This document shows positions 1,807 through 39,302 of a DNA stretch of 64,000 bases, piece after piece. How positions within the stretch are numbered: the first letter of the stretch is position 1; every line of letters starts with the position of its first letter. The notes beneath the pieces are model-generated. The model searched no databases and was not told the origin of the DNA. It saw nothing but the letters and a program-made list of their open reading frames with translations. The stretch is from an uncultured Gammaproteobacteria bacterium (GTDB lineage: Bacteria; Patescibacteriota; Patescibacteriia; UBA9934; GWF2-40-263). The position numbers and the translations under genes are program-made. The DNA lies in NCBI GenBank assembly GCA_964538435.1, contig CAZIDX010000002.1:41566-105565 (forward strand), given 5' to 3'.

Positions 1807-3120
1807 CTAGCGTCCTGACAAATTCAGCACATGCAAAACCGTCTTGATCAAAATCTCCAGATCAAACATGAGTGACCTGTGCTTTAGATAGTATAAGTCG
1901 TATTGCAATTTTCTACGAGAATCCTCAACGTCAGATGCATACACATGAAGCTGTGCCCAACCCGCCAGACCTGGAAGGATCTCTGTTCGATGATTATAAA
2001 ACGGAATATGATCAGCAAGCTTCTCGCACAAATGAGACTGCTCTGGTCTTGGTCCAACCAAACTCATATCCCCCCTAAGAAGGTTGATACATTGCGGCAC
2101 CTCATCTAATCGCGACTTACGTAAAAACGATCCAATACGGGTAATCCGCGGATCATTTTTCTCTGTCCACGTATCCGTTCTCGTCCCCGTACGCATTGAT
2201 CGATACTTGATCAGCTTAAACGATTTCCCCTGCAAAGAGTAACGATCCTGTTTGAAAAACACAGACCCTTTACCTGACAATTTGATAAGCACGGCAATAA
2301 ACGGAAGCGTTGTCACAAAAAACACACCAATGATAAGCCCAGAACAAATATCACCTAAACGCTTCGCTGTGTCATACAACCCCTTTCGAGACCGAACCAA
2401 AAACCACCAGTCACTCAAGTCATCTAGAGACACTCGACGATAGTAATCCTCATAAAATGCTGGATACGAAACAATCGTTGCGCCTTTTGAGTGAACTTCC
2501 TGCAATCTAGCAAGCGTGCTCCGGCTAAGCTCCTTAACATCTCCGACTACAAACCATGACCGCTCACATCTTGCTTGTCCAAATCGATGATCTTCATGAT
2601 CAAATGAGATTGACTGCCTCAAATGTAAGCTGTGATTCCTCTTAATTTCATTATCAGCCTTTAACTCACTCCACTGCTTCCTAAGGCCAACAAAGTACAC
2701 ATCCGTCACTGCATGCCGATGGAGGAAGTACCTAAGAGAAAAGAGCCAACCAAAAAGCAATGCACTTGCAATGAGGAACTGAGCAAGTAAAAATCGACGA
2801 GGGGTAAGGATGAGATCTGGCTGAAGATAAAAAACCAAAACAGCAAACACAAGATTAAACGCCGAAGCATTCAAGAACCCTCCAACATAATCTCTAATAT
2901 GTTTATGTCTCCACGGATCAAACGCACCGAACGCAAACAACGCAACCACCCAAACAGCAAAGATAACGGAAAACAATGTGATGTGCGCAGAAGTTTGAGC
3001 AACTGACAATCCCTCTGGATACCAAACCCCAAGCGTCCAATGTAAACTCAGGCACAAAAAACCGACTGACGGGAGAATCAGTAGAAAAAACTGGATTGCG
3101 TGTTTAGATCTTTGCTTCAT
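1807..3120 (-). CDS. polyprenyl-phosphate hexose-1-phosphate transferase (WbaP/WcaJ/EpsE-type bacterial sugar transferase)
   Basis: C-terminal block KQDRYSLQGKSFKLIKYRSM...DEVPQCINLLRGDMSLVGPRPE...LAGWAQL is the canonical bacterial sugar transferase domain; N-terminal TM helices. Confidence 0.85.
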   Translation of the reverse strand: MKQRSKHAIQFFLLILPSVGFLCLSLHWTLGVWYPEGLSVAQTSAHITLFSVIFAVWVVALFAFGAFDPWRHKHIRDYVGGFLNASAFNLVFAVLVFYLQPDLILTPRRFLLAQFLIASALLFGWLFSLRYFLHRHAVTDVYFVGLRKQWSELKADNEIKRNHSLHLRQSISFDHEDHRFGQARCERSWFVVGDVKELSRSTLARLQEVHSKGATIVSYPAFYEDYYRRVSLDDLSDWWFLVRSRKGLYDTAKRLGDICSGLIIGVFFVTTLPFIAVLIKLSGKGSVFFKQDRYSLQGKSFKLIKYRSMRTGTRTDTWTEKNDPRITRIGSFLRKSRLDEVPQCINLLRGDMSLVGPRPEQSHLCEKLADHIPFYNHRTEILPGLAGWAQLHVYASDVEDSRRKLQYDLYYLKHRSLMFDLEILIKTVLHVLNLSGR

Positions 3121-3127: not shown

Positions 3128-5317
3128 TTAATCCTGCAAAAACTGTTCTACGAGCGGATGTTCATTTGGTGATATCTCAAGCAAGTACTCGCCTGTTTCA
3201 ATCGCCATCTCAACATTACCTAAGGCAAGATAAGTCCCCACCAGAATCTCGTAGAACTGATATTCCTCAGGATGTATTTCAATCAAACGATTCAAAAATA
3301 CAAGCAACTCTTCAGATTGCCCGTTCTCTGAAAACCTCATGATAAGCCACAACGCAATCGTGTGATCTGCATCGTAAAACTCGTGATCGAGCGCGCGATA
3401 TAAAACCTCAGCCGCCTCATCAAAACGCTCTTGATCCAAATACAGCTGCCCCAAAATCCCTAGCGCCTCAGCATCAGTCGGAGCTTTCTCTGCAGCTTCT
3501 TCTGCAACCGCAATGGCTTGATTGGTATCACCACTTAACTGATACATATGCGCAAGCGAGACCATCCATTCAACCCGATCAGGAGCAAGTTGCTCTGCTT
3601 GATCAAACACCTCAAGAGAACGCTCAGTAAACACCTCAAACTCAGGATCAGTTTCTACAGCAGAGGCTGCTCTGAGCGCCAAAAACGCAGCGTATTTGTC
3701 CCAATGCCTAGCACGCAAAGGTCGCTGCGACACCAAATGCTCAAATGATTCTTCTGCTGCATCAAACAAGCCAACAAGATGCTCATACTGCGCATCTGAT
3801 TGCATGGCGTACACAAGCACATCAAACTGTGTCTCAGGAATAAGCCGAGGCCCAAGAAGCAGCGTTTGCTTATCATTCAAAGCCACTGCATCAATCACAG
3901 CTTGTTGAGGACTCTCATTAAGCATTGCCTTGCTGCTGAGCGTTGCATGCACAGCCCCATAATACGGGAGCACAACAAACACAACCGAGAAAAACATCAC
4001 AACCACAGCCGCCGAACTGATCGGCACAACCATCTTCTGTTCTTCAAAGTCTTTCTCTGATTCTGAAACATGAAAAGCAGCAAGCGAGACAAGTAATGCA
4101 AATGGGATCAAAGAACCAACGGTTTCAAACATGAAGAAAACATTTCCAAGATAAGCCACAAGCGCAGCCAAGAACCATTCACTGCGCTCTTTTCTCCAAA
4201 ACGCACGAACAAGAAAGAACAAAAATGCAGCATAAGCAAGCAAAGCAACAATTCCGCCTGCTGTCAGTAAATCCAAGAAATGATTATGAGGTTTGTCCGG
4301 CCACGTGTCTGAGAGCTCGTACAACTCTGCTGAGTATCGCTCATCCGCAATCTTGAAATAATTATCAAAACCTAATCCAGGCAAAAGATTATCCTTTGAC
4401 TCCTCCAAGGCAAACGCCCAATAACTCAACCTTTGTGATGAAGTCTCTGAATAAAAATGCGTAAGCCGATACGGAAGACTTCGCTCAGGAGCAAATGTCC
4501 AAGCCAGAGCAAATGCCATTGAACAAAGCACAGCAAGCACAACAAACCCACTGAGAAGCTTCCGTCGCTTCTTCTGATCTCCTGCCTTAAACGCATACAC
4601 AAACCCACCAACAACTGCACCTGCAACAAGCCCAATGAGCGCCGCCCGCGTCCCTGACGCCAAGATAGCAAGCAAGATCACACCAGCAGATCCAAAATAC
4701 AAATGCTTCTTTCTCTCACAAACACCCAAATAAATCGCCATGAAAAACGGAATGATCAGAAAGCTCGCAAAGTACGCTGGGTTCCCAAACACACTTGATA
4801 CGCGTGGAAGATACGGCTCAGCCATAGTCGGCAGCCACCCCACATATTCAAACAATGCGTACACAGAAGCCAAAGCCGCCCCACCAACAAGCACGATCAT
4901 TGAGTGCCGCCCGAACTCCTTCCCCCATCGAAGGTGTGCAAATCGTAAAAGCACTACAAACACCAAAATGTGCGCAAGGAAAAACAAACCTCCCACACGA
5001 TCCATATTCCCCAAAAAACTATTCCAAGGATCAATCCCAAATGCAGAAGCAACAACGAGAGCAAGGAAAAAACCAACAAAACTGAGAACTACCGGATCAC
5101 GCCAAAAGCCTTTTTGACGATTCTTTAAATACAGATACAAAAAAACGGGAACTAAAAGTTCCACCAAAATCATGAACGAAATCTTCTTTGCATTTTGAAA
5201 CGGAGCATAAATATGTGGAAAAACCACAAGCGGTGTCAAAAGCACCATCAAAATCCCCCAATAATAGATCGTTTTCAAGCTTTTTTCCATATGTTTTTGT
5301 GGTCTGTAGTATAGCAA
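3128..5317 (-). CDS. O-antigen ligase-like polytopic membrane protein with C-terminal TPR repeats
   Basis: About 430 aa of multi-TM sequence followed by TPR-like helical repeats (e.g. AEEAAEKAPTDAEALGILGQLYLDQERFDEAAEVLYRAL). Confidence 0.55.
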   Translation of the reverse strand: MLYYRPQKHMEKSLKTIYYWGILMVLLTPLVVFPHIYAPFQNAKKISFMILVELLVPVFLYLYLKNRQKGFWRDPVVLSFVGFFLALVVASAFGIDPWNSFLGNMDRVGGLFFLAHILVFVVLLRFAHLRWGKEFGRHSMIVLVGGAALASVYALFEYVGWLPTMAEPYLPRVSSVFGNPAYFASFLIIPFFMAIYLGVCERKKHLYFGSAGVILLAILASGTRAALIGLVAGAVVGGFVYAFKAGDQKKRRKLLSGFVVLAVLCSMAFALAWTFAPERSLPYRLTHFYSETSSQRLSYWAFALEESKDNLLPGLGFDNYFKIADERYSAELYELSDTWPDKPHNHFLDLLTAGGIVALLAYAAFLFFLVRAFWRKERSEWFLAALVAYLGNVFFMFETVGSLIPFALLVSLAAFHVSESEKDFEEQKMVVPISSAAVVVMFFSVVFVVLPYYGAVHATLSSKAMLNESPQQAVIDAVALNDKQTLLLGPRLIPETQFDVLVYAMQSDAQYEHLVGLFDAAEESFEHLVSQRPLRARHWDKYAAFLALRAASAVETDPEFEVFTERSLEVFDQAEQLAPDRVEWMVSLAHMYQLSGDTNQAIAVAEEAAEKAPTDAEALGILGQLYLDQERFDEAAEVLYRALDHEFYDADHTIALWLIMRFSENGQSEELLVFLNRLIEIHPEEYQFYEILVGTYLALGNVEMAIETGEYLLEISPNEHPLVEQFLQD

Positions 5318-5372
5318 ATACTCAATAAATAGCTATGTTTTCTCAATTCAATCAAACGAAAACTTTGAAATA

Positions 5373-5398
5373 GAAAAACCCTGACATTGCTGCCAGGG
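5373..5398 (-). terminator. intrinsic terminator of histidine-phosphatase gene (CCCUGGCAGCAAUGUCAGGG-UUUUUC on minus strand); part of duplicated 33-bp repeat
   Basis: Hairpin ccctg/caggg with T-run, 8 nt after stop codon; near-identical copy at 6319-6344. Confidence 0.6.
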
Positions 5399-5406
5399 CC
5401 GTGTGA

Positions 5407-6129
5407 CTACGGCATGGACGCACCATCAGGGAGACGACCTTCCCAGGGTGTGATGTAGTCGATCGCAGGATTGTGAACCAGCCTGGAGCAGCCAGTCTCC
5501 GAATCCGTCTGGTTGTGATAGCGCAGGATCGAGACATTGGCCACGACCTGATGGTCACGGTACATCTGCTCGACCTGCTCGATGGTCCAGCCCTCGAGCA
5601 CCTTCTGCAGAAGCAGGAGCCAGTGCGCATGACCGACCACAGCGATCTTCTTGCCAGCGTACTTCAGACGCAGCATGAGCAGGAACTCGTGCACACGACG
5701 CTCCATATCCGCCCAGCTCTCACCCGCGATCGGGCGATGATGGTACGGACCACTCGCTGCCAGACGACCTGCCTCGAACGGGAACTGGATCGCCATCTGC
5801 TGACGCGTCAGCACATGCTCGATTCCACGATCTCGCTCAGCCAGACGAGGATCCTGACGAATCTCTCTGTCCGGGAAGCAGATGTCTGCAGTCTCGCAGG
5901 TTCGCTTGTAGTACGAAGCAAAGATGCGATAGAGAGCATCCCCACTGTAATGCCCAGCAAGCCAGTCCCGCGTGAACCCAGCCTGAGCTTGTCCAAGCTC
6001 GGTCAGAGCATAGCGATTGCTCGCCAGCGGGTTGCGAGCACGCTCTTCACGCGTCATCACATTCCCTTGGCTCTGTGCATGCCGGATGAACAGCACCTCG
6101 TCAGGAAAAGCCAGTTCTCTCAGTGACAT
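5407..6129 (-). CDS. histidine phosphatase superfamily (phosphoglycerate mutase-like) protein; visibly GC-rich
   Basis: LFIRHAQSQGN matches RHG-x-x-x-N catalytic motif; SD GGAGAGG 6 nt upstream of ATG; G+C clearly above flanks. Confidence 0.6.
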   Translation of the reverse strand: MSLRELAFPDEVLFIRHAQSQGNVMTREERARNPLASNRYALTELGQAQAGFTRDWLAGHYSGDALYRIFASYYKRTCETADICFPDREIRQDPRLAERDRGIEHVLTRQQMAIQFPFEAGRLAASGPYHHRPIAGESWADMERRVHEFLLMLRLKYAGKKIAVVGHAHWLLLLQKVLEGWTIEQVEQMYRDHQVVANVSILRYHNQTDSETGCSRLVHNPAIDYITPWEGRLPDGASMP

Positions 6130-6216
6130 GAATTACCTCTCCCCGCGCGCTAAAGAGGGTTCTCTTTCTTTAGTACGGGAGAAAAGAAAACTACATGAAA
6201 CAAGCTTTTCCGTCAA

Positions 6217-6266
6217 TTGAGAGATACCATATAAGTACCGATCGGCACTTATATGGTATCTCTCAA
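6217..6266. promoter_or_regulatory. 50-bp near-perfect palindrome (20-bp perfect arms ttgagagataccatataagt / acttatatggtatctctcaa around ccgatcgg core) upstream of the histidine phosphatase gene
   Basis: Read directly; right arm abuts a minus-strand TTGACG -35-like hexamer; candidate operator. Confidence 0.4.
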
Positions 6267-6318
6267 AATACTCAATAAACGAAAAATACCTAAACTAGGA
6301 ATTATTGACAGATGAATA

Positions 6319-6344
6319 GAAAAACCCCGACATTGCTGCCAGGG
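6319..6344 (-). terminator. intrinsic terminator of 149-aa GC-rich gene; second copy of 33-bp repeat agaaaaacccYgacattgctgccagggccgtg
   Basis: Near-identical to 5371-5403 (1 mismatch); hairpin + U-run on minus strand. Confidence 0.6.
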
Positions 6345-6354
6345 CCGTGCAGCG

Positions 6355-6804
6355 CTAGGCTGCGGCAAGCTCCCAGAGATAGACCGTACGCTTGCATGTC
6401 TGAGAACGATCGAGCTCCTCGATCCCACTGACCTTCACCAGAAACGAAGGCGGGATGTCCTCGAGCGCTCCGTCCGAAAGCCGAGGGCCATGCGTGCAGT
6501 CCAGCGCCCGTAGGTTGAGCTCACGCCCACCCTGAGCAAACCAGCTCCGAAGCTTGTGAACCGCCACTTCCTCGGACACGCTCCCATTCGAAGGAACCGC
6601 CACCTTGAAGTACGAGGTATTCCCCCAGTTCATGGGAAACTGAGACTTGTCCCGGTTGAAGTCCGGATCCGAACTCGTGACCTCCACTGCAAACACATGC
6701 AGCATGAAGTTGCTCGGATGCCACTTGGGCAACTCAACCTTATTCCGACCAGAAAACCGCTCGTACAGGAATCCTCTTACAGCATCCAGAAAGGAGATCG
6801 TCAT
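6355..6804 (-). CDS. hypothetical protein (149 aa), GC-rich
   Basis: ORF with elevated G+C, own terminator copy; no recognisable motifs. Confidence 0.45.
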   Translation of the reverse strand: MTISFLDAVRGFLYERFSGRNKVELPKWHPSNFMLHVFAVEVTSSDPDFNRDKSQFPMNWGNTSYFKVAVPSNGSVSEEVAVHKLRSWFAQGGRELNLRALDCTHGPRLSDGALEDIPPSFLVKVSGIEELDRSQTCKRTVYLWELAAA

Positions 6805-7175
6805 CTCTTTACCCCCTTGGAGTTATTGCTCTTGCGGAGCCCCTAAGCTACTACACCCACATCACCATGTCAACCATAGGCTATTTTCAACACCAAAACG
6901 AAGACCGCACCAATTGCGTTAGGTGCGGTCCGTCCAGCCGACCAAGTCAAACTTGGCAAGAGCTGGTTCGCTGCCTTTCTCAGGTGTTGTTGAAGCGGGC
7001 TCGAAACCAAAGGTATCGAATCACCCCAACGAACAAGAGTGTCGAGCTGAGAAAAAGTGCCAACGAGATCACCCACATCTCTATAGAGCGGAAAATCCCA
7101 CCCTAACGAACGACCTGAGTTAGCACAAAAATAGGGCTTTGTCAATGGTTTAATGGAAAAAACACCACAAACCCG

Positions 7176-7203
7176 TTGATTTATCCCAACGATATGCTAC
7201 AAT
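7176..7203 (+). promoter_or_regulatory. sigma70-like promoter TTGATT-N16-TACAAT upstream of tRNA-Gln
   Basis: Hexamers read directly; about 100-nt leader with two short hairpins before the tRNA. Confidence 0.4.
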
Positions 7204-7313
7204 CTCCGCGGATGACTTAAGAATAGGAATGCGCTCCCGGATGCTTTGCATCCGTATCGCTCCGCTCGGGCCTAGAAAATACGCAAGCGTCTTTTCTAGA
7301 CCGCTCGCTACGC

Positions 7314-7387
7314 TCCCGGATCGTCTAATGGCAGGACGCCTGGTTTTGGTCCAGGTAATCGGGGTTCGAATCCCTGTCCGGGAACCA
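7314..7387 (+). tRNA. tRNA-Gln (anticodon TTG), CCA encoded
   Basis: Cloverleaf folded by hand: acceptor TCCCGGA/TCCGGGA (U1-A72), anticodon stem CCTGG/CCAGG, loop TTTTGGT, T-loop TTCGAAT, discriminator A + CCA. Confidence 0.85.
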
Positions 7388-7390
7388 CAT

Positions 7391-7425
7391 AAAACCGACA
7401 GCTTTTGCTGACGGTTTTATGTTTC
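7391..7425 (+). terminator. intrinsic terminator after tRNA-Gln
   Basis: aaaaccgacagc-tttt-gctgacggtttt hairpin followed by T-run. Confidence 0.6.
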
Positions 7426-7714
7426 TGGACAGCGTCAGTCAGAAAACTTCGCTGGTTCATCAGGAATGTGAGCGAGAGAACTCACTCTGACAATTCCGAG
7501 CGAATGAGTCGTTTCGTCCGGCTCTGCTGGACCATCTCTGTTCGCCAAAAACCACCCACATGGTCTCACTCCAGCGTGCAGCTCCATGTTTACACACAAA
7601 CCACCAACTCTAAACGTAAGTTTTTTGACAAACCTAATCGAACACATGACAATAAACCTGCCCCCCTCCGTTCAATCGGTGGGTTTTATATACTCAAAAT
7701 AATAAACTCAACGA

Positions 7715-7744
7715 CACAAATTCTCGTACGTACGAGAATTTGTG
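7715..7744. repeat. 30-bp perfect palindrome cacaaattctcgtacgtacgagaatttgtg
   Basis: Verified by reverse-complementing; second imperfect copy of core TCTCGTACGTACGA at 7807-7831. Confidence 0.8.
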
Positions 7745-7806
7745 CAGCACTTAACAAAAAAGTTCTTTTCCTTGCTTTTCGTAAATATAGATACTTTTAC
7801 ACAACA

Positions 7807-7831
7807 CATTTTCTCGTACGTACGAAAAATG
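7807..7831. repeat. second copy of TCGTACGTACGA-core palindrome (imperfect arms)
   Basis: cattttctcgtacgtacgaaaaatg; shares 12-bp palindromic core with 7715-7744. Confidence 0.7.
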
Positions 7832-7871
7832 CAGAATCATAAAAACCCACACTTAGCCAACACAAACAAAA

Positions 7872-7900
7872 AACAACCGTCTTCCACGGTTGTTTTGTTA
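7872..7900. terminator. bidirectional terminator hairpin aacaaccg-tcttcca-cggttgtt + T-run (ends ftsX transcript; could also end a small plus-strand transcript)
   Basis: Perfect 8-bp stem flanked by A-run/T-run. Confidence 0.55.
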
Positions 7901-7904
7901 TCAT

Positions 7905-8873
7905 CTACACCTTCAAATACCTCCTCATTGCCAAACTCGTCGACACAAGCGTTACCACCACCAGCACAAGCAACTCCAACCCATAAATCATAACCCCATT
8001 TGTTGCAAAGTATTCCACAAGCCCAACCGTCTCTGTTCCAAAGTAAACATTAAACCGGGGCTCAATCATGGCAAGCACTGGATACATAAGCGCCACTGTT
8101 CCTCCCACTGCAAGCATGCTAAGTAGAACCATCTCAAGGAAGAACGGCGCCTTGATGAACCAATTTGAGGCTCCCACAAGCCGCATAATCCCAATCTCTT
8201 CCCGATGAATATAAATCCCTATGCGCACCGTATTAAACACAATCAAGATCGCAATAAGCATGAACACAACCGACAGCGCCACACCAAAGGCCCGAATCTT
8301 ATCAGTGGTGTCTTGAATGCGCGTAACAATCTCCTCATAATTTGAAAAATCTTTCTCTCGAATCTCATCAGCAAACGCTGGATTTTCAAGTGAGTCCAAG
8401 ATGAGCTCAAAATCCTCAGCCGAGTTCGCCTTCACAATCAACGTCGGCCCAAACGGATTATCTTCAATCTCCTCAAGCGAGGCCAAAATCTCCTCATCAA
8501 GAGCATGGCGTTCTACAAACTGTTCGTACGCCTCCTCTGCTGAAATCGTCTCAACATCCCTCACCTGCGCTAGGCTGCGCATGTACTCAACCGCACCATT
8601 AATCGTTTCCTCACCTGCAGTCTCATGAAAATACACCGAAACCTCAATCCGATCTTCAACAAATCCAATCGCCTTCTCTGTCACCACATTCATCACAAGC
8701 AAAATGTTGATCGTGATAAGAGTAAGCAAAAGCATGCTCACTGTGATAATGGAAAGCCAAAAATTTCTCCAAAAATTCTGAAAGGCAAATTTTGAAACGC
8801 GAAATGAACTTACAAACATATTAAATCTTATATCTTCCCTCTTCGACGTCAGAGACAACCTGACCGTCATCAA
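7905..8873 (-). CDS. ftsX: cell division permease FtsX-like
   Basis: 4-TM topology with large extracytoplasmic loop, conserved MRLVGAS..FI motif, directly downstream of ftsE. Confidence 0.75.
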   Translation of the reverse strand: MMTVRLSLTSKREDIRFNMFVSSFRVSKFAFQNFWRNFWLSIITVSMLLLTLITINILLVMNVVTEKAIGFVEDRIEVSVYFHETAGEETINGAVEYMRSLAQVRDVETISAEEAYEQFVERHALDEEILASLEEIEDNPFGPTLIVKANSAEDFELILDSLENPAFADEIREKDFSNYEEIVTRIQDTTDKIRAFGVALSVVFMLIAILIVFNTVRIGIYIHREEIGIMRLVGASNWFIKAPFFLEMVLLSMLAVGGTVALMYPVLAMIEPRFNVYFGTETVGLVEYFATNGVMIYGLELLVLVVVTLVSTSLAMRRYLKV

Positions 8874-9501
8874 GAGAAATAACGCGTTTCTTAAGTCGAT
8901 TCACAATCTCACGATCATGTGTCACAAGCACAACCGTTGTGCCAAACTCATTGATTCGTTTTAGAAGATCGATAATCTCCCGCGCATTGAGCGTATCCAA
9001 ATTCCCTGTTGGCTCATCAGCAACAAGAATCTTTGGTGAATGCACAAGCGCACGCCCAATAGCCACACGTTGCTGCTCACCACCAGAAAGCTGATGAGGA
9101 TAACGGTTAGCCTTGTCCCCAAGATCAACAATGTCAATCACGCGCGGGACCACATCTCGAATACGCCGCGGCTTTACACCTGCAACCTGAAGCGCAAACG
9201 CAATATTCTCCTGAACAGTCTTTTTCTTTAACAGCTTGTAATCCTGAAACACCACACCAATTTGCCTGCGAAGCAATGGAACGTCTCGATCTTTTATCCG
9301 AGTGATATCCCACCCACCAATCTCAATCTTCCCATGCGATGGACGCTCTTCTGCAAACAAAAGTTTAGCAAGCGTGGACTTCCCAGTACCGCTCTGCCCC
9401 ACAATGGAAACAAATTCTCCAGGTCTAATATGGAGACTCACACTGTCCACACCAACAACATTGGGGTGGTACATCTTTGAAACATTTTTAAATCGAATCA
9501 T
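8821..9501 (-). CDS. ftsE: cell division ATP-binding protein FtsE (ABC ATPase)
   Basis: Walker A GQSGTGKST, ABC signature LSGGEQQRVAIGRAL, Walker B ILVADEPTGNLD. Confidence 0.85.
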   Translation of the reverse strand: MIRFKNVSKMYHPNVVGVDSVSLHIRPGEFVSIVGQSGTGKSTLAKLLFAEERPSHGKIEIGGWDITRIKDRDVPLLRRQIGVVFQDYKLLKKKTVQENIAFALQVAGVKPRRIRDVVPRVIDIVDLGDKANRYPHQLSGGEQQRVAIGRALVHSPKILVADEPTGNLDTLNAREIIDLLKRINEFGTTVVLVTHDREIVNRLKKRVISLDDGQVVSDVEEGRYKI

Positions 9502-9527: not shown

Positions 9528-10586
9528 ATGATACCCTATGAACGTATGAGTGAACAAGCGCCAGACAATCAAAAATACACCTCCTTTGAGCTCCCCAAAG
9601 CACCAGAGCAAGAGCAACAACCTCAAGGTCAAGAACAAAAGGTTGTTGAGCTTAAAGAATCACTAGAAGCAAAACAAGAACTCACAACTTGGACAGAAAA
9701 AATAGTTGAAGATGCTCTTGATGATCTTCAGATTGAATTTGACTTCAACTTTCACGAAGAAAACTTTACCTTTCACGGACGCGAACACTCACAAGATGTT
9801 ATTGACCGATCTGCAACCATACTAAGAACCATGCAATCTGAAGGAGGGCATGTCAGCGAAAAAGACGTTGCTCTGGCTAAAATCGCTGCAGCATACCATG
9901 ATGCAAAGCAAGAATGGGTAGTGAATGATCAGTGGAAAGAAGGAAGTGATGATGCAAAATTTGGAAAAAAACTTCGTCAGCGCAAAACAAGAGACAATGA
10001 AATCAATAGTGCGAAAAAAGCTATTGAAGCAATGCGTTATGCCAACAAGGGTGCGGGAAAAGAAATTTTCACTCAAATAGACATGGAACGTGTTGCTGAT
10101 GCCATCGAAGGCACCATTCCTGGCTTTGATCCAGATCTTGGAACAGTTGTCCAGCCATCAGCAGAATCCTCACAAGATATCATCACCCGAGCCATCGCAC
10201 TTGCCGACCTGGGTGAGGCAGGTATGTCAGGACCCAAAGCATTCCTTGATGGAGGCGATAAGCTCTTCATGGAAGAAAACATTGACATGTGGAATCTTGA
10301 TCCAGCAAAACTTTCTGATGAGCAAAAGGTATATTACAAAAAACGCATGGACGGATGGAATGGATTTCAACCAATTTTTGCAAACGGAAGAAAAGAAAAG
10401 CTTAGTGATGAACTAGCAACACTCCCTGACGAATCCCGCACCCACCTAGAAAAACTCTTCAATAAATTCGATGCATCAGTCAAAGCTGCCACAGCGCGAG
10501 CAAAGATCAGAAAAGGAATGAACTTTGACGAGCTCTATACCTCCATGGGTTTTATGGACTTTGCTGAAGAACGTAATGCAGCCTAA
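9528..10586 (+). CDS. HD-domain-like hypothetical protein
   Basis: H...HD pattern (GREHSQDV ... AAAYHDAKQE); Glu/Gln-rich N-terminus. Confidence 0.4.
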   Translation: MIPYERMSEQAPDNQKYTSFELPKAPEQEQQPQGQEQKVVELKESLEAKQELTTWTEKIVEDALDDLQIEFDFNFHEENFTFHGREHSQDVIDRSATILRTMQSEGGHVSEKDVALAKIAAAYHDAKQEWVVNDQWKEGSDDAKFGKKLRQRKTRDNEINSAKKAIEAMRYANKGAGKEIFTQIDMERVADAIEGTIPGFDPDLGTVVQPSAESSQDIITRAIALADLGEAGMSGPKAFLDGGDKLFMEENIDMWNLDPAKLSDEQKVYYKKRMDGWNGFQPIFANGRKEKLSDELATLPDESRTHLEKLFNKFDASVKAATARAKIRKGMNFDELYTSMGFMDFAEERNAA

Positions 10587-10587
10587 T

Positions 10588-10845
10588 ATGAACATTGAAC
10601 AAAGATTGGACATTATCGAAGAACGAAATAAACGCGTAGAAGCTGACAAAGCTTGGGAGACAAGCACCTTCCGCGTAATCTCCATCACCCTCATCACCTA
10701 CATCATCGCCACAATCGTCATGTTCCTGCTCGGCGTGGTAAAACCCTGGCTCGGAGCCCTGATCCCAACGCTTGGATACTACTTATCAACCAGATCCCTC
10801 CCCATCATGAAACGCTGGTGGATAAACAAGCACTTAAAGAAATAA
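10588..10845 (+). CDS. small 2-TM membrane protein (86 aa from ATG at 10588)
   Basis: Two hydrophobic helices; ATG immediately after upstream stop. Confidence 0.4.
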   Translation: MNIEQRLDIIEERNKRVEADKAWETSTFRVISITLITYIIATIVMFLLGVVKPWLGALIPTLGYYLSTRSLPIMKRWWINKHLKK

Positions 10846-10850
10846 CAAAA

Positions 10851-10876
10851 AACAACCCACAATGGGTTGTTTTTCT
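10851..10876. terminator. bidirectional intrinsic terminator aacaaccc-acaat-gggttgtt + T-run between convergent genes
   Basis: Read directly. Confidence 0.6.
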
Positions 10877-10887
10877 ATTCAGTAAAA

Positions 10888-11886
10888 CTAGTCAATGTAA
10901 TTCTTAAGCTCAGACGCTTCCACAAATTCCTCCACAATCTTTTCAAGTGTTTGTTTTTGAACAGTGATCGCAAGCAAGTGCAACTGCGTGTCTTCCCCTG
11001 CAACAATCGAGTCGTTTACAAGAAAGATGGCAAACCCCTCTTCAAGCTCAAGCATTTCTGTATACTCACCAATCTGAAGATCTTCTACATCCTGAGCCCA
11101 TGCTGATGGAATCGATGACAACTTCACGTACCCGAGGTCGCTCTCAACAGAATCATCATACGCAGCATGAACATCCTTTGCCACCTGAGCAAAATCTTCA
11201 CCTGACTGCACGCGCGCATAGGCTGCATTCATTGCATCCTGGCGATCTTTCTGAATTTCGTCATTTTCAAGAACGAATGTGTGCATCTGAAGCGCAAGAA
11301 CAATGGAGTCAACAATGTTTTCTTTAAACTCTTCTGTTGTCCAGCCAAAGGTCTCCTCAAGTTCTTCAGCAAACACCTCCTCACTCTCCTGCCCGCTCAA
11401 AATCCCTTGATAGTAATTCTCAGCCTCCCCTTCATCAATCTCCACCCCATACTCATCAGCAAGCTGACGAACAGCAATCTTGTTCACAAGTGTTTCTGAA
11501 ATAGCGTCTTCCAACTCCTGATCAGATGGCGCAGACTCGTCAGCGCTAAAGAAACTGACAAGCGCATCATACTCATTCAAATACTCTTTTATAGAAACTG
11601 TTGTTCCATTCAGTGTAATCGCAGGATACGGAATAACACTCGCCACAGCCCTAACAAAACCATCAGAAACCGGTCGTTTATAAACTTCACGAGTCACAAG
11701 ACCAAATGCCACCAAAAACAAAACTAAACTGATAACGATTTTTTTCTTATGGGAAGAAAAAAACGCCCGTCTTGGTGACGTGGTTGTATCATGTTTCTTG
11801 TGTGTTTCAGGCTTTTTCTTTTCCGTTTCGGTATGTTTGTGAGTTGTAGAATGTTCTTTGTGATCCCCCTTGTGAGAGCTATTCAT
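10888..11886 (-). CDS. SurA/PrsA-like protein with PpiC (parvulin)-type PPIase domain; start taken at internal Met (ATGA overlap with upstream gene)
   Basis: GEDFAQVAKD...SDLGYV...FAIFLVND resembles parvulin GADFGKLAKK...GGDLGEF...GYHIIKV (catalytic His not conserved); N-terminal TM anchor. Confidence 0.5.
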   Translation of the reverse strand: MNSSHKGDHKEHSTTHKHTETEKKKPETHKKHDTTTSPRRAFFSSHKKKIVISLVLFLVAFGLVTREVYKRPVSDGFVRAVASVIPYPAITLNGTTVSIKEYLNEYDALVSFFSADESAPSDQELEDAISETLVNKIAVRQLADEYGVEIDEGEAENYYQGILSGQESEEVFAEELEETFGWTTEEFKENIVDSIVLALQMHTFVLENDEIQKDRQDAMNAAYARVQSGEDFAQVAKDVHAAYDDSVESDLGYVKLSSIPSAWAQDVEDLQIGEYTEMLELEEGFAIFLVNDSIVAGEDTQLHLLAITVQKQTLEKIVEEFVEASELKNYID

Positions 11887-17977: not shown

Positions 17978-18076
17978 CCCAGGCCGCCAAACGGCCATTC
18001 GAGGTCGTAGGTTAAAAACATTTACAACGAGTTTTTAAACTACGACCTCGTGGCCGCCCCAAGCCCCCACAGCAAG
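17978..18076. repeat. 99-bp structured intergenic element, copy 1 (flanks cccaggccgccaaacggcc ... gtggccgccccaagcccccacagcaag around a 19-bp-stem hairpin)
   Basis: Near-identical architecture with compensatory stem changes at 37930-38028; diverged copy 39303-39416; lies 4 nt past ATPase stop codon. Confidence 0.75.
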
Positions 18077-18079: not shown

Positions 18080-20719
18080 TTATTTATGTTTTCGTAAAAT
18101 CAACAACTCTTTACCAAATTCAATAATCACAACCTTGATTAACCCCATAATAAGCAAGAGGCCCCACATATGCAAACCAAGCGGCACAATCTCGAACACT
18201 CTCTGCAACAGCGGAACAGTTGTTGCTGCAATCATCATTACAAACCCAATCGACACACCACCAATGAGCCAAAGGTTCGAAAATGGGTTAACTCTAAAAA
18301 TGCTTTTTCTAAATGTTCTTGTGGAGAACACATAGAAAAGCGTATCAATCCCCACAGCAACAAACATAATTGATCGAACGGCCTCTTCTGAGCGTTCTGT
18401 TGAGAGAAGCCAGAAAAAGAGCCCCAACAAAAACACATTCGCCACCACCGCAATCAACCCAATCATTTTAATCATGTCACGATTAAGCACACGCTCCTCT
18501 CGCTTACGAGGCTTGAGCCCCATAACATCCTGCTCTTTCTTTTCAAGCGCAAGTCCAATATGCGGAAAACTGTCAGCAAAGAAATTGATCCAAAGAATCT
18601 GAACAGGTAAAAGCGGTGCAGGAAGACCGGCCAGCATGGCAAATCCAATCAGGAACACTTCCGTAAAACTCCCAGCAATCAAATACACAGCCACCTTACG
18701 AATATTGTCAAAAATCACACGCCCCTCCTCAATCGCTGCGGAAATCGTTCCCAGATCATTATTCAGAATCACCACATCAGACGCTTGCTTTGCCACATCT
18801 GTTCCTGACCCAACCGCAATACCAATATCCGATGCTTTCAAAGCTGGTGCATCATTCACCCCATCACCTGTCATGGCCACAACCTCACCTCGTGCCTGCC
18901 ACGCTTTCACAATTCGAATCTTATGCCGAGGTTCCACGCGCGCATAAATCGATATCTTTGCCACCTGCTTCTTAAGATCTTCATCAGACCATGAATCAAG
19001 ATCTGTCCCCACTACCACACTTTCTTTGTCTGCATGAAGGCCTGCCTCAGCACCAATGGCACGTGCCGTTTCAGGATGATCACCTGTGATGATCACTGTG
19101 CGCACACCCGCCCGCTTTGCTGCCTTGATCTGCTGCTTTGCCTCTGCACGGAGCGGATCCCGAAGCCCAACAAATCCAAGAAAGGTGAAACCTCTTAGCT
19201 TATCCTTGTGAATAACATCTCCTTTTTCAACATCCTCTAAAACGGCAAGCGCAATAATCCGAAGCCCTTTTTGCGTTGCCTTAAGCACGCGCTTCTCCCA
19301 CTCTGCCTTTTTCTTTGCATCAAGCTTTACTGTTTTCTCTCCTCTTTGCACAAACGAACACATCTCAAACACCTTTCCAGGTGCCCCTTTCACAAACAAC
19401 GCCTGCGCATTCCCCCACTCATGCTTTGTCACCATGTACTTCCACGCAGAATCAAACGGAATCTCAGCAACACGCTTATGCGCCTTCTGCAGCGCATCAA
19501 GATCCATGTGCGTATCAAGCACACTGTGCATAAGCGCAGCCTCAGTTGGGCTCCCCTTCACCTCAACCTCTTCACCCTCAACAACGATTGCGTCATTACA
19601 AAGCCCGCTTATCTCAAACATCTTCCAAACAACACCATCCTCAGATCGATAAGCCTCTTCAATCGTAAATGTCTCATTAGCTGTCTCAACATCAGTAACC
19701 CGCATCTCCCCCTCAGTAATCGTCCCTGTTTTGTCTGAACAAAGAACAGACACGCTTCCAAGCGTCTCAGCTCCAACCAAACGTCGCACAAGCGACCGAC
19801 GCTTGAGAATCCTTTGCATTCCAATTGCCAAAATGATCGTCACAGACACGAGAAGTCCTTCTGGGATCGCTGCAACCGCAAGTGCAACACTCATTTCAAA
19901 CATGTGCACAAATGACTCTCCTCGAAACAAACCAAACGCAAACAAAACAAAGATGATCCCAGCAACTACGCCAGAAATCCACTTTGCAAGCACAGCAAGC
20001 TGCTCCTGAAGCGGCGTCTGTGTCTCATCGGTTTCCTGCACCATGCTAGAAATCTTCCCAAGTTCCGTCTTGAGCCCTGTCTCCACCACAACCGCTAAAC
20101 CACGACCACCTGTCACAACCGTCCCGGCATAAACCATGTTCTTGCGCTCGGCAAGCAAGGCACCCTCATTCAATTCTTCTGTGATCTTCTTGATCGGCAT
20201 GGACTCACCCGTAAGCGCAGCCTCATTCATGACAAGATCATGCGTTTCAAGCATGCGCGCATCAGCTGAAATTCTATTCCCTGTTCGAAGCACAAGAACA
20301 TCTCCAGGAACCAATTCCTTTGCACTCACCACAGTCTCTCGACCCTCTCGAACAACCGTTGCCTCAGGCTGCACAAGCGATCGTAAATGCTCAAGCGCCT
20401 GATTGGCTTTAAATTCCTGAATGAATCCAATAGCTGTGTTTACCACAACAGCTGCCCCAATCACCCAAGCATCCACCCACTCACCAAGCAAAGCACTGAT
20501 CACAGCCGCAGCAACAAGCACGTAGATAAGCGGAGAGGTAAACTGGTGAAGCAAAACAAGCCACCAAGGATCACTCTTTTTATGCGGAAGCTCATTCCTC
20601 CCATGTATCCCAATCCTTCTTTCCACAGTCGAGCCAGAAAGGCCCTCCATATCAACAGAGAGCGTCTTTAAAGCGTCTTCAGTTGTCTTTGCATGCCAAG
20701 TAGCCATGTAAAATCTCAT
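18080..20719 (-). CDS. P-type cation-transporting ATPase (type II, Ca/Mg-like)
   Basis: DKTGTITEGEM phosphorylation motif, TGDGVNDAPALK, GDHPETA, 10 predicted TMs. Confidence 0.9.
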   Translation of the reverse strand: MRFYMATWHAKTTEDALKTLSVDMEGLSGSTVERRIGIHGRNELPHKKSDPWWLVLLHQFTSPLIYVLVAAAVISALLGEWVDAWVIGAAVVVNTAIGFIQEFKANQALEHLRSLVQPEATVVREGRETVVSAKELVPGDVLVLRTGNRISADARMLETHDLVMNEAALTGESMPIKKITEELNEGALLAERKNMVYAGTVVTGGRGLAVVVETGLKTELGKISSMVQETDETQTPLQEQLAVLAKWISGVVAGIIFVLFAFGLFRGESFVHMFEMSVALAVAAIPEGLLVSVTIILAIGMQRILKRRSLVRRLVGAETLGSVSVLCSDKTGTITEGEMRVTDVETANETFTIEEAYRSEDGVVWKMFEISGLCNDAIVVEGEEVEVKGSPTEAALMHSVLDTHMDLDALQKAHKRVAEIPFDSAWKYMVTKHEWGNAQALFVKGAPGKVFEMCSFVQRGEKTVKLDAKKKAEWEKRVLKATQKGLRIIALAVLEDVEKGDVIHKDKLRGFTFLGFVGLRDPLRAEAKQQIKAAKRAGVRTVIITGDHPETARAIGAEAGLHADKESVVVGTDLDSWSDEDLKKQVAKISIYARVEPRHKIRIVKAWQARGEVVAMTGDGVNDAPALKASDIGIAVGSGTDVAKQASDVVILNNDLGTISAAIEEGRVIFDNIRKVAVYLIAGSFTEVFLIGFAMLAGLPAPLLPVQILWINFFADSFPHIGLALEKKEQDVMGLKPRKREERVLNRDMIKMIGLIAVVANVFLLGLFFWLLSTERSEEAVRSIMFVAVGIDTLFYVFSTRTFRKSIFRVNPFSNLWLIGGVSIGFVMMIAATTVPLLQRVFEIVPLGLHMWGLLLIMGLIKVVIIEFGKELLILRKHK

Positions 20720-33261: not shown

Positions 33262-33305
33262 ACAAAAAAACAGCCTGAAATACGGCTGTTTTTTGATTGT
33301 AAGCA

Positions 33306-33334
33306 TTGACAAGAAGAGTTTGCAGATGTATAAA
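33306..33334 (+). promoter_or_regulatory. consensus promoter TTGACA-N17-TATAAA with SD AAGGAGGA upstream of GC-rich gene
   Basis: Read directly. Confidence 0.55.
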
Positions 33335-33361
33335 ACCCTCTGGCATGAAGGAGGATTCACC

Positions 33362-33889: not shown

Positions 33890-33940
33890 CTCTCCAACCT
33901 CGTCCTCGGACGGGGTTTTCAAATACAAACAGGAGTGAAA

Positions 33941-38614: not shown

Positions 38615-38707
38615 ATCAAGCGGATTATACCATGATCGCTTGACTTTTTGTGCGAGAAGTAGTAGATTCAAACGTCTTCCCATGACGGGAAACAAAGGAG
38701 AACCTCG

Positions 38708-39295: not shown

Positions 39296-39302
39296 GAAAC
39301 AT

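What the first reader, a model, noticed from the sequence alone, without database searches (positions are those of the whole stretch)
5350..7150. Two-gene GC-rich islet bounded by a duplicated 33-bp terminator repeat, next to tRNA-Gln
A histidine-phosphatase-family gene and a 149-aa ORF are visibly more GC-rich than their neighbours. Each is followed by an almost identical 33-bp sequence (agaaaaacccYgacattgctgccagggccgtg; 5371-5403 and 6318-6350). Each copy is preceded by the shared upstream motifs atactcaataaa and gaa(a)tag.

Identical terminators on consecutive genes suggest cassette-like acquisition or duplication rather than convergence. The islet ends about 150 bp before the tRNA-Gln promoter. 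An 11-nt copy of the tRNA 5-prime end (cgctcccggat) also occurs 77 bp upstream of the tRNA. There is no integrase nearby.
Basis: partly seen in the sequence, partly recalled or inferred. Interest (0 to 1): 0.55.

Follow-up and report, generated by a model that had tools for sequence, protein, structure and literature searches.

The report
Variable gene slot with copied terminator
Beside a tRNA-Gln gene, this small, probably candidate-phyla-radiation bacterial genome has a spot where relatives carry different GC-rich accessory genes; here a phosphatase gene was spliced in and ends in a copy of its neighbour's transcription terminator, which is an ordinary kind of genome patchwork caught in clear detail.

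Summary
A 35-nt sequence (5369-5403 and 6315-6349, 34/35 identical) follows both minus-strand genes. It folds as a 10-bp hairpin followed by a U-run. GC is 0.57-0.59 and GC3 0.66-0.69, against 0.43-0.46 and 0.34-0.52 in neighbouring genes.

The two genes are not one acquired unit.

- **The 149-aa gene is resident.** One relative (L011) has an uncalled orthologue at the same place, with 56% aa identity, dN/dS about 0.34 and dS equal to the flanks. It has the same GC-richness and a single copy of the same terminator.
- **The histidine-phosphatase gene is swappable cargo.** L011 has a DUF4419 gene in that slot. L012 has a different phosphatase allele (49% identity) plus DUF4419. L004 has a 79% allele directly beside tRNA-Gln.
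- **The downstream terminator is a recent local copy.** In L012 and L004 the phosphatase keeps its own terminator. In the window that terminator is replaced, at a CACGG microhomology, by a copy of the neighbour's.

The repeat is not dispersed: it occurs twice in 64 kb and once in a relative's 355-kb contig. No integrase or attC-like features were found. This is a small flexible islet, a new member of a known kind. Recurrent flanking duplications around homologues elsewhere remain unexplained.

The parts
5316..5329 (-). 14-nt motif TTTATTGAGTATTT directly upstream of the extended -10 (TGCTATACT) of the Wzy_C-TPR gene. This is the ancestral copy.
   Evidence: Conserved in L011 as tttattgaggattt+gctatactacag. 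An exact second copy lies at 6266-6279.
5369..5403 (-). T1: intrinsic-terminator hairpin (GGCCCUGGCA-GCAA-UGUCAGGGUU followed by UUUCUAUU) after the phosphatase gene. It is the extra, recently copied terminator.
   Evidence: Folds at -15.6 kcal/mol, z -4.25, and is listed by the terminator scan. It is 34/35 identical to T2. It replaces the native His_Phos terminator seen in L012 and L004.
5407..6129 (-). Histidine phosphatase superfamily (branch 1) gene, 240 aa, GC 0.585. Stand-alone accessory cargo.
   Evidence: Pfam PF00300, E 5e-23. No NCBIfam equivalog reaches its cutoff. The catalytic R16/H17/R76/H167 residues are invariant in the family alignment. Contexts differ in every relative.
6188..6216 (-). 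Promoter-like site for the phosphatase gene: TTGACG (6216-6211), 17-nt spacer, TAGTTT (6193-6188).
   Evidence: Read from the sequence. L012 has the analogous TTGACA-17-TAGGTT upstream of its allele. The simple consensus scan did not call it, so this is inferred.
6217..6266 (.). Near-perfect 2x25-nt palindrome at the upstream junction of the phosphatase segment.
   Evidence: Arms are 96% complementary with no spacer. Energy is -38.7 kcal/mol, z -8.9. It is unique in the window. The Logan contig L002 breaks inside it. Function unknown.
6266..6279 (-). Second, exact copy of the 14-nt motif TTTATTGAGTATTT.
6315..6349 (-). T2: terminator of the 149-aa gene, orthologous to the single terminator in relatives.
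   Evidence: Matches L011 11431-11464 (30/34 identical) directly after the orthologue. Shares the G in the stem with L011. Folds at -14.9 kcal/mol. The L012 orthologue keeps the hairpin with a different loop.
6355..6804 (-). 149-aa lineage-restricted protein gene of unknown function, resident at this site.
   Evidence: The only relatives among 1.84 billion representatives and 5.8 billion clusters are P0013 (a paralogue in L011) and an uncalled orthologue, L011:10945-11403, at 56% aa identity. dN 0.37, dS 1.07. There is no Pfam, PADLOC, PHROG or NCBIfam hit.
6845..6873 (-). Promoter-like site of the 149-aa gene: TTGACA (6873-6868), 17-nt spacer, TAGCTT (6850-6845).
   Evidence: Read from the sequence. 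TTGACA plus a 17-nt spacer is conserved upstream of the L011 orthologue. Inferred.
6894..6938 (-). Orphaned terminator hairpin, 45/45 nt identical to the one after an 81-aa membrane ORF in L011.
   Evidence: blastn 100% over 45 nt. Fold at -23.1 kcal/mol. The 3' end of the 81-aa ORF is still recognisable upstream.
6939..7145 (-). Decayed remnant. It holds the promoter homologous to that of the L011 paralogue P0013 (7084-7145) and the 3' scrap of the 81-aa ORF. The genes between them have been deleted.
   Evidence: blastn places 7084-7145 on L011 9928-9989 at 84% identity. See also the alignment. tblastn finds no surviving coding remnant.
7176..7203 (+). tRNA-Gln promoter: TTGATT, 16-nt spacer, TG-extended TACAAT.
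   Evidence: Promoter scan. Conserved in L011.
7232..7321 (+). Two copies of the 11-nt repeat CGCTCCCGGAT, 79 nt start to start with 68 nt between them, in a tRNA leader that is much longer than in relatives. The first copy sits where the tRNA 5' end lies in relatives.
   Evidence: L011 and L004 lack this segment.
7314..7387 (+). tRNA-Gln(UUG). It is inverted relative to the flanking genes when compared with L011, and in the same relative orientation as in L004.
   Evidence: ARAGORN. Strand relations from blastn. The Logan contig L001 ends inside it at 7342.

Best explanation
The region is a small flexible accessory-gene slot between two conserved blocks: FtsE-FtsX and tRNA-Gln on one side, and a Wzy_C / sugar-transferase glycan cluster on the other. 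[quoted passage not shown]

**Two independent transcription units.** Each gene has its own promoter-like site and terminator.

1. The 149-aa gene is a fast-evolving, lineage-specific resident, inherited vertically together with its terminator T.
2. The histidine-phosphatase gene is exchangeable cargo that circulates among Patescibacteria as a single-gene promoter-ORF-terminator unit. It lands in varied contexts, often beside tRNA genes.

**Origin of the duplicated terminator.** In this genome the phosphatase segment lies between T and the Wzy_C promoter. Its own terminator has been lost. Its 3' end is joined, at a 5-nt CACGG microhomology, to a second copy of T.

The most economical route is recombination between two closely related islet variants. 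One end would be anchored by homology in the 149-aa/T region and the other joined illegitimately at CACGG. Under this route, T2 and T1 would be the donor's and the recipient's copies of the same terminator.

**Function.** Both copies act as Rho-independent terminators. T1 insulates the downstream Wzy_C operon.

**Shown:** the anatomy, the orthology, the slot variability, and that the T copy is recent.

**Inferred:** the recombination route, terminator and promoter activity, and the direction of transfer.
For: **Synteny with L011**
- The flanks are colinear at 74-82% nt identity.
- T1 and T2 both map to one L011 site, 11425-11464.
- L011 has an uncalled 152-aa orthologue directly before that terminator.

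**The 149-aa gene is resident**
- Its dS is 1.07, against 1.09-1.30 for FtsX and Wzy_C.
- Its dN/dS is about 0.34.
- Its GC3 is 0.69, against 0.67 in the orthologue.

**Slot content differs between relatives**
- L011 has DUF4419 in place of the phosphatase.
- L012 has the 149-aa orthologue tail, then T, then a phosphatase only 49% identical with its own terminator, then DUF4419 at 84% identity to the L011 copy.
- L004 has tRNA-Gln next to a 79%-identical phosphatase, with the same native terminator type and GC 0.61 against 0.42 in the flanks.

**Junction sequences**
- Window phosphatase: TAG-TCA-CACGG|CCCTGG.
- L012 phosphatase: TAG-CTA-CACGG|AGACC.
- Window T2: TAG-CGCTG-CACGG|CCCTGG.

**The T copy is recent.** T1 and T2 are 34/35 identical to each other, but 30/34 identical to the L011 terminator.

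**T is not dispersed**.

**Hairpin folding and terminator scan** support terminator function.

**Phosphatase family distribution**
- The closest homologues are nearly all in CPR MAGs.
- The gene is more GC-rich than its host locus in 10 of 12 loci.
- It lies beside tRNA-Asn in L019.

**Literature.** Patescibacteria carry many genomic islands and singly transferred genes, mostly exchanged within the phylum (PMC12455944).
Against: - No donor or 'empty' site (149-aa gene, T, then Wzy_C with nothing between) was found, so the recombination route is a reconstruction.
- CACGG is only 5 nt and could be coincidence.
- The spacers between T and the 14-mer are not significantly alike. The extent and age of the duplication are therefore ambiguous.
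- The 50-nt palindrome at the upstream junction is unexplained.
- The high GC3 of the resident 149-aa gene persists across dS of about 1. This is not what a simple, decaying foreign signature predicts.
- The taxonomic assignment is indirect.
Confidence: 0.62

Rival explanations
1. The arrangement is ancestral and has been lost differentially. Under this view the common ancestor already had the 149-aa gene, T, the phosphatase, and possibly a second T and DUF4419. L011 lost the phosphatase by deletion between short repeats, and the window lost DUF4419. T1 and T2 are kept alike by gene conversion or selection, and no horizontal transfer is needed.
For: - The phosphatase cassette is a clean indel between L012 and L011, bounded by TCTAATT / TCTCAATT against a single TTCAATT. 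This pattern fits deletion.
- Direct repeats favour loss.
- The phosphatase lies near tRNA-Gln in the window and in L004, and downstream of T in the window and in L012.
Against: - The window and L012 phosphatases are only 49% identical, although the gene is not fast-evolving (dN 0.14 between window and L004) and the neighbouring genes are 79-92% identical to their L011 counterparts.
- Phosphatase dS between window and L004 (0.83) is lower than core dS between window and L011 (1.09-1.30), although the L004 tRNA-Gln is more diverged (88% identity against 98.7%).
- The native terminator is present in L012 and L004 but replaced in the window.
- GC3 of 0.66-0.79 sits in genomes with a GC3 of about 0.4.
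Confidence: 0.17
2. T is a recombination site of a site-specific cassette system (integron or CALIN-like, or an attL/attR pair). Under this view the two genes are mobile cassettes moved by a recombinase encoded elsewhere.
For: - The pattern is ORF-repeat-ORF-repeat, and the repeat is an imperfect palindrome.
- Flanking duplications also surround phosphatase homologues in L005 (41 nt, 80% identity, unique in 20.7 kb).
- The same is seen in L016.
Against: - There are only two copies in 64 kb and one in a relative's 355-kb contig.
- The repeat is 35 nt with a perfect 10-bp stem, a GNRA loop and a U-tract. It has no GTTRRRY/RYYYAAC cores, extrahelical bases or central spacer.
- Both genes have their own promoter-like sites.
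- No integrase lies within at least 10 kb.
- The 149-aa gene and T are vertically inherited.
- In L016 the duplication is a tandem paralogous gene module, not a site.
- The flanking repeats in the window, L005 and L016 share no sequence.
Confidence: 0.07
3. The two genes form one functional system, for example a defence or toxin-antitoxin-like pair, and are kept together by selection.
For: - They are adjacent, co-directional and similarly GC-rich.
- A small unrelated 146-aa ORF also precedes the phosphatase homologue in L005.
Against: - They occur apart in relatives: L011 has the 149-aa gene without the phosphatase, and L004 has the phosphatase without the 149-aa gene.
- A terminator and a promoter-like site separate them.
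- There are no PADLOC hits.
- The L005 146-aa ORF is not homologous.
- In L013, L014 and L019 the phosphatase has other neighbours.
Confidence: 0.04
4. The arrangement is an assembly chimera: a de Bruijn graph mis-join through the shared 35-mer stitched a GC-rich fragment from another organism into this contig.
For: - MAG contigs can be chimeric at repeats.
- Composition changes sharply at the repeat.
Against: - Three assemblies agree base for base across both junctions: the NCBI contig, Logan SRR8146440 and Logan SRR8146441.
- L012 independently shows the T-phosphatase adjacency in a relative.
Confidence: 0.02

Closest known systems
Small genomic islets / flexible-genome hot spots next to tRNA genes, and single-gene horizontal transfer in Patescibacteria (PMC12455944)
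   Same: - Compositionally deviant accessory genes sit between conserved core blocks beside a tRNA gene.
- The content differs in each relative.
- The cargo family is shared mainly within Patescibacteria.
   Different: - There is no integrase.
- No tRNA 3'-end direct repeats bound the islet.
- The whole islet is only about 2.5 kb.
- One of its genes is a vertically inherited resident that keeps its high GC.
Phage 'morons' (autonomous promoter-ORF-terminator units inserted between genes)
   Same: - The phosphatase unit in L012 and L004 has its own promoter-like site and its own terminator.
- Its GC content differs from the surroundings.
- It is present or absent as a clean unit of about 865 nt.
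   Different: - It is not in a prophage.
- No viral relatives were found.
- In the window the unit has lost its own terminator and borrowed the neighbour's.
Homology-facilitated illegitimate recombination in transformable bacteria (established knowledge, not tested here)
   Same: - One junction lies in homologous sequence (the 149-aa/T region).
- The other lies at a few bases of microhomology (CACGG).
- Together these give foreign DNA followed by the recipient's own copy of the anchor's distal part.
   Different: - This is only inferred from the product.
- Competence of this organism, the donor and the recipient state are all unknown.
Integron gene cassettes / attC sites
   Same: ORFs alternate with a repeated imperfect palindrome.
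   Different: - The size, sequence features, copy number, presence of promoters and absence of an integrase all fail to match.
- The repeat is a canonical terminator hairpin, single-copy in relatives.

Membership tests
Histidine phosphatase superfamily, branch 1 (PF00300) | Significant match to the family profile over the whole domain | tested here: met
   E 5.4e-23, 82 bits against a cutoff of 21.7; residues 12-207 cover profile positions 1-184 of 194.
Histidine phosphatase superfamily, branch 1 (PF00300) | Catalytic RH(G/A) motif with the nucleophilic His, plus the second Arg and second His | tested here: met
   R16, H17, R76 and H167 are invariant across 9 homologues. Activity itself was not tested.
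Named His_Phos subfamilies (CobC, PspA, dPGM/GpmA, RNase H-acid phosphatase) | Score above the NCBIfam equivalog cutoff | tested here: not met
   The best hit is TIGR03162 at 49 bits against a cutoff of 163; all others are far below their cutoffs. The only PDB hit is PspA-like 4ij5 at E 1e-4.
Rho-independent (intrinsic) terminator | GC-rich hairpin immediately followed by a U-tract, located just 3' of a stop codon | tested here: met
   T1 and T2 have a 10-bp stem, a GCAA loop and a UUUUUCUAUU tail. They start 3 and 5 nt after the TAG codons. Termination activity was not tested.
Rho-independent (intrinsic) terminator | Structure kept in orthologues despite sequence change | tested here: met
   The L011 and L012 orthologous terminators keep a hairpin and U-run with changed stem and loop bases. 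Only 3 lineages were compared, so this is qualitative.
Integron cassette array / CALIN (attC sites) | attC of about 57-141 nt with R''/L''-L'/R' boxes (RYYYAAC ... GTTRRRY), extrahelical bases and an unpaired central spacer | tested here: not met
   The 35-nt element has a perfect stem and a tetraloop. The only GTT is followed by TTTC.
Integron cassette array / CALIN (attC sites) | Several similar sites in an array; promoterless cassettes; intI nearby (for a complete integron) | tested here: not met
   There are two copies only, and a single copy in a 355-kb relative contig. Promoter-like sites lie upstream of both genes. No recombinase domain is found in at least 10 kb of flank.
tRNA-targeting integrative genomic island | Tyrosine or serine recombinase gene at one end | tested here: not met
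   None is present in the islet or within at least 10 kb.
tRNA-targeting integrative genomic island | Island bounded by the tRNA gene and a direct repeat of part of it | tested here: not met
   The 11-nt repeat of the tRNA 5' end encloses only 68 nt of leader (79 nt start to start). The GC-rich genes lie outside it.
tRNA-targeting integrative genomic island | Deviant composition and variable presence among relatives | tested here: met
Anti-phage defence systems (PADLOC) | Match of either protein to a known defence-system model | tested here: not met
   No hits at E up to 0.1.

The most novel reading that the evidence does not exclude
Histidine-phosphatase genes of this Patescibacteria clade may be the cargo of an unrecognised way of inserting single genes without a recombinase encoded in cis. 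Under this reading they land immediately downstream of a resident gene's terminator, or beside a tRNA gene, and duplicate the adjacent intergenic signal.

This would explain three observations:
- Independent lineages show the gene flanked by copies of a neighbour's terminator or promoter module (window, L005, L016).
- Two different alleles occupy the same slot after terminator T (window, L012).
- The gene stays GC-richer than most of the hosts examined (10 of 12 loci).
Probability: 0.1. Interest if true: 0.6.

Novelty: new member of a known kind. Interest (0 to 1): 0.3.

Why it matters
The region gives a base-resolved example of how a streamlined, probably symbiotic bacterium swaps single accessory genes at a fixed hot spot without any visible mobile-element machinery. 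It also shows how a newcomer gene can end up using a copy of its neighbour's terminator.

It flags a two-locus orphan protein family (three known members) and an uncharacterised, apparently mobile histidine-phosphatase clade in the candidate phyla radiation.

None of this changes current understanding of genome plasticity, so its value is mainly descriptive. It is also a caution that adjacent GC-rich genes need not share a history.

Tried and rejected
- **Dispersed or mobile repeat.** The T pattern was searched in the window and in the JGI metagenome collection. Only the syntenic site of relative FLOH01000056.1 and one chance hit inside a coding region (L037) were found.
- **Same signature at other GC-rich patches.** The other GC-rich patches in the window were checked for flanking duplications. 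None was found.
- **Synteny search in species-representative genomes.** A search with Wzy_C found nothing, so the lineage is absent from that collection.
- **Phage origin.** There were no relatives of either protein in viral contigs. The only PHROG hit is a family of unknown function for the phosphatase.
- **Defence system.** No PADLOC hits.
- **Known RNAs in 5000-8200.** Only the tRNA was found.
- **Homology between the 149-aa ORF and the 146-aa ORF preceding the L005 phosphatase.** None.
- **Hits to 1593-aa and 1917-aa proteins in the exhaustive search.** These are tandem-repeat proteins with summed weak scores, and were rejected as artefacts.
- **AlphaFold model of the 149-aa protein.** Mean pLDDT was 52.6, too poor for a fold search, so none was run.
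- **Remnants of the L011 islet genes in the window.** tblastn found none apart from the 149-aa family. Nucleotide alignment did reveal promoter and terminator scraps.
- **Similarity between the spacers separating T from the 14-mer.** Not above shuffles.
- **Organism name.** Cluster look-up and literature search gave none.
Full report
**1. Observation**

All genes of interest lie on the minus strand:
- a sugar transferase (1807-3120);
- a Wzy_C-TPR protein (3128-5317);
- a 240-aa histidine phosphatase (5407-6129; PF00300, E 5e-23);
- a 149-aa ORF (6355-6804).

These are followed by tRNA-Gln(UUG) on the plus strand (7314-7387), and by FtsX and FtsE on the minus strand (7905-9501).

The repeat is real: 5369-5403 and 6315-6349, 35 nt with one mismatch, against no match in 100 shuffles. 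The 14-mer AAATACTCAATAAA also occurs exactly twice (5316-5329, 6266-6279).

GC rises to 0.54-0.60 against about 0.44 in the flanks. GC3 of the two genes is 0.66 and 0.69, against 0.34-0.52 in neighbouring genes.

On the transcribed strand the repeat folds into a 10-bp hairpin with a GCAA loop followed by UUUUUCUAUU. It starts 3 or 5 nt after each TAG stop codon, which makes it a standard intrinsic-terminator shape.

Two independent Logan assemblies match the window base for base across both junctions, so the arrangement is not an assembly chimera.

**2. The 149-aa gene is a resident, not an acquisition**

The gene is almost an orphan. The word-indexed search found only the protein itself. The exhaustive search of 1.84 billion representatives found one credible relative, P0013 (27% identity; pairwise E 5e-16), plus two tandem-repeat artefacts. 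A profile search added nothing.

P0013 lies in FLOH01000056.1 (locus L011), which is syntenic with the window:
- FtsE-FtsX and the Wzy_C / Bac_transf / glycosyltransferase blocks are colinear at 74-82% nt identity.
- Wzy_C is 79% identical at the protein level.

Reading L011 directly shows an ORF the gene caller missed (10945-11403). It is 56% identical to the 149-aa protein, lies at the orthologous position, and is followed by a single copy of the same terminator. P0013 is therefore an upstream paralogue.

Between the window gene and the L011 orthologue, dN is 0.37 and dS 1.07 (dN/dS about 0.34). The dS matches FtsX (1.09) and Wzy_C (1.30).

The gene is therefore real, under purifying selection, and has co-diverged with its flanks. 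It is equally GC-rich in both genomes (GC3 0.69 and 0.67).

**3. The phosphatase is exchangeable cargo in a variable slot**

The interval between terminator T and the Wzy_C promoter differs in each relative.

| Locus | Content of the slot or context |
|---|---|
| L011 | A convergent DUF4419 gene (GC 0.62); no phosphatase |
| L012 (1.5-kb contig of another relative) | Tail of the 149-aa orthologue (..TWELVSA*); a T orthologue; a promoter-like site; a phosphatase only 49% identical to the window's; its own terminator GGAGACC-ttcg-GGTCTC-TTTTCTG; then DUF4419, 84% identical to L011's |
| L004 | A 79%-identical phosphatase directly beside tRNA-Gln (divergent orientation, as in the window); the same native terminator type; a CTP-transferase gene downstream; no 149-aa gene |

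- Relative to L011, the L012 phosphatase unit is a clean indel of about 865 nt. It is bounded by TCTAATT / TCTCAATT, against a single TTCAATT in L011.
- In L004 the gene GC is 0.61, against about 0.42 in the flanks.

More distant homologues (41-46% identity and below) are nearly all in CPR MAGs: Uhrbacteria, Paceibacteria, Saccharibacteria, Yanofskybacteria and Magasanikbacteria. Each has a different neighbourhood. The one exception is a MAG labelled Gammaproteobacteria (L014), whose gene order and sequences resemble those of the Uhrbacteria locus L013.

In 10 of 12 loci the gene is GC-richer than its host locus. In a Magasanikbacteria genome it forms a single-gene islet (GC 0.51 against about 0.30) beside tRNA-Asn.

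Several points argue for exchange rather than simple vertical descent:
- The window and L012 alleles are only 49% identical, although the gene evolves slowly (dN 0.14 between window and L004).
- Phosphatase dS between window and L004 (0.83) is lower than core dS between window and L011, although the L004 tRNA-Gln is more diverged.
- The gene's distribution is patchy.

This fits published surveys showing frequent intra-phylum gene exchange in Patescibacteria (PMC12455944).

No NCBIfam equivalog reaches its cutoff. The enzyme is an uncharacterised branch-1 histidine phosphatase with intact catalytic residues.

**4. Origin of the duplicated terminator**

T2 is the orthologous copy. It follows the 149-aa gene as in L011 and L012, and shares the stem G with L011. 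T1 is the extra copy.

T1 and T2 are 34/35 identical to each other, but 30/34 identical to L011's T, and less similar still to L012's. The copy was therefore made after these lineages split, or it reflects two very close variants.

T is not a dispersed element:
- two copies in 64 kb;
- one copy in the relative's 355-kb contig;
- no other related record of the JGI metagenome collection (exact-pattern search, so diverged copies would be missed).

The window's phosphatase has lost the native terminator that L012 and L004 retain. The three junctions read:
- window phosphatase: TAG-TCA-CACGG|CCCTGG...(T1);
- L012 phosphatase: TAG-CTA-CACGG|AGACC...(native terminator);
- window T2: TAG-CGCTG-CACGG|CCCTGG.

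The switch from phosphatase 3' flank to T therefore lies at a shared CACGG.

I infer a recombination between two related islet variants. It would be homologous on the 149-aa/T side and illegitimate at CACGG on the other side. This leaves the incoming T (T2) upstream and the recipient's T (T1) downstream, with no dedicated duplication mechanism needed. A Campbell-type insertion of a circular fragment carrying T is an alternative that gives the same product.

The second 14-mer and the 2x25-nt palindrome (6217-6266; -38.7 kcal/mol; unique) sit at the upstream junction and are not explained by this model. An alternative local alignment suggests the duplicated stretch may run from T into the left arm of the palindrome.

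**5. The wider islet is decaying and rearranged**

In L011 the whole FtsX-to-Wzy_C interval (about 4.6 kb) is GC-elevated at 0.50-0.64. It carries an RNase III-like gene, tRNA-Gln, a 195-aa gene, P0013, an 81-aa membrane ORF, the 152-aa orthologue and DUF4419.

The window keeps only scraps of this:
- the P0013 promoter (7084-7145);
- the 3' end of the 81-aa ORF;
- its terminator (6894-6938), which is 45/45 identical to L011's. This is striking given a dS of about 1 in the flanks.

tRNA-Gln and its promoter are inverted relative to L011.

The window's tRNA leader is much longer than in L011 and L004. The first copy sits where the tRNA 5' end lies in relatives. This repeat bounds only the leader insertion, not the islet.

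A Logan contig ends inside the tRNA gene, which is consistent with population heterogeneity at that point.

No recombinase is encoded within at least 10 kb.

**6. Rivals**

- **Ancestral arrangement with differential loss.** This remains possible (about 0.17) and explains the clean indel. It does not explain the 49% allele divergence or the replaced terminator.
- **Integron-like or att-site reading.** This fails every structural and contextual test applied (see the membership table).
- **Functional two-gene system.** The genes occur apart in relatives and are separated by a terminator, which contradicts this.
- **Assembly artefact.** This is excluded.

**7. What remains odd**

- Flanking duplications also surround phosphatase homologues in two unrelated lineages.
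  - In L005 the gene and the unrelated 146-aa ORF before it are each followed by a similar 41-nt terminator segment (80% identity). It is unique in 20.7 kb.
  - In a Saccharibacteria locus (L016) the gene sits between tandem paralogous promoter-gene-terminator modules.
  - Nine other loci show nothing of the kind, and the repeats share no sequence. I treat this as a weak hint of a recurrent recombination-based insertion mode, with a probability of about 0.1 for a distinct mechanism.
- High GC3 in the vertically inherited 149-aa gene persists across saturating synonymous divergence. A simple decaying foreign-DNA signature does not predict this.

**8. Verdict**

This is a small flexible islet at a tRNA-adjacent hot spot in a probable CPR genome. 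It holds one resident orphan gene and one exchangeable phosphatase gene. The phosphatase gene's terminator is a recent local copy of its neighbour's.

It is a new member of a known kind, of modest interest (0.3).

Noticed in passing
window 17978-18076 and 37930-38028: A 99-nt repeat (90% identity), 20 kb apart. Each copy lies just 3' of a minus-strand gene: a P-type ATPase at 18080-20719 and an orphan ORF at 38036-38845. It folds into a long hairpin (-57 and -54 kcal/mol, z about -6), and the stem differences between the copies are compensatory. There is no Rfam match. It could be a structured 3' element or a miniature mobile element.
   Followed up: partly
window 27300-27900, 33300-33900, 38700-39300, 46900-47500, 55400-58900: At least five further GC-rich patches (GC 0.58-0.69, against a window mean of 0.474). 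Most encode ORFs with no Pfam match. ORF 57483-58970 is adenylosuccinate-synthetase-like. None is flanked by duplicated sequence. The genome is a compositional mosaic.
   Followed up: partly
window 7232-7321: The tRNA-Gln leader is much longer than in L011 and L004 and carries two copies of an 11-nt direct repeat (CGCTCCCGGAT), 79 nt apart start to start with 68 nt between them. The intervening stretch contains two hairpins and repeated CGCTC motifs. It looks like the scar of an insertion into the 5' end of the tRNA gene.
   Followed up: partly
window 7314-7387 vs L011 9023-9096: tRNA-Gln with its promoter is inverted relative to the flanking FtsX and Wzy_C blocks when compared with L011. L004 shares the window's orientation. 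A Logan contig ends at 7342, inside the tRNA.
   Followed up: partly
window 6894-6938 vs L011 10798-10842: A 45-nt terminator hairpin is 100% identical between two genomes whose flanking genes have a dS of about 1. It is orphaned in the window, because the gene it served is deleted. This implies either strong constraint or recent exchange.
   Followed up: partly
window 7715-7744 and 7805-7828: Two copies of a palindromic motif (TTCTCGTACGTACGAGAA) lie 90 nt apart in the roughly 430-nt non-coding stretch between the tRNA-Gln terminator and the FtsX terminator. They look like operators. A promoter-like TTGACA-17-GACAAT lies at 7625-7653.
   Followed up: no
window 6217-6266: A near-perfect 50-nt palindrome (2x25 nt, no spacer) lies directly upstream of the phosphatase promoter-like site. 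It is unique in the window, and one assembly breaks inside it. It could be an operator or a fold-back repair footprint.
   Followed up: partly
L011 10945-11403: The public gene call on this stretch is a 249-aa ORF on the opposite strand (10462-11211). The conserved 152-aa orthologue of the window's 149-aa gene was missed, so it is absent from protein databases.
   Followed up: yes
L016 4880-9800 (Saccharibacteria MAG CAZAUE010000007.1): An array of small single-gene units. Each is preceded by a conserved module of about 60-100 nt (TTTGATTTTTGGGTGGGGAAGTGGGA plus TTGAC-17-TAGAGTAT) and followed by its own terminator. The array includes tandem paralogues (201 and 203 aa) with the phosphatase homologue between them.
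   Followed up: partly
L005 1235-5756: A serine recombinase, a T4 endonuclease IV-like gene and tRNA-Asn lie 4-9 kb upstream of the phosphatase homologue. This suggests an integrated element in that lineage.
   Followed up: no
L014 (CAYYFM010000082.1): This MAG is labelled 'uncultured Gammaproteobacteria', but its gene order and sequences resemble those of the Uhrbacteria locus L013. The phosphatase gene appears frameshifted into 119-aa and 111-aa pieces. The contig is probably mis-binned and carries a pseudogene or a sequencing error.
   Followed up: no
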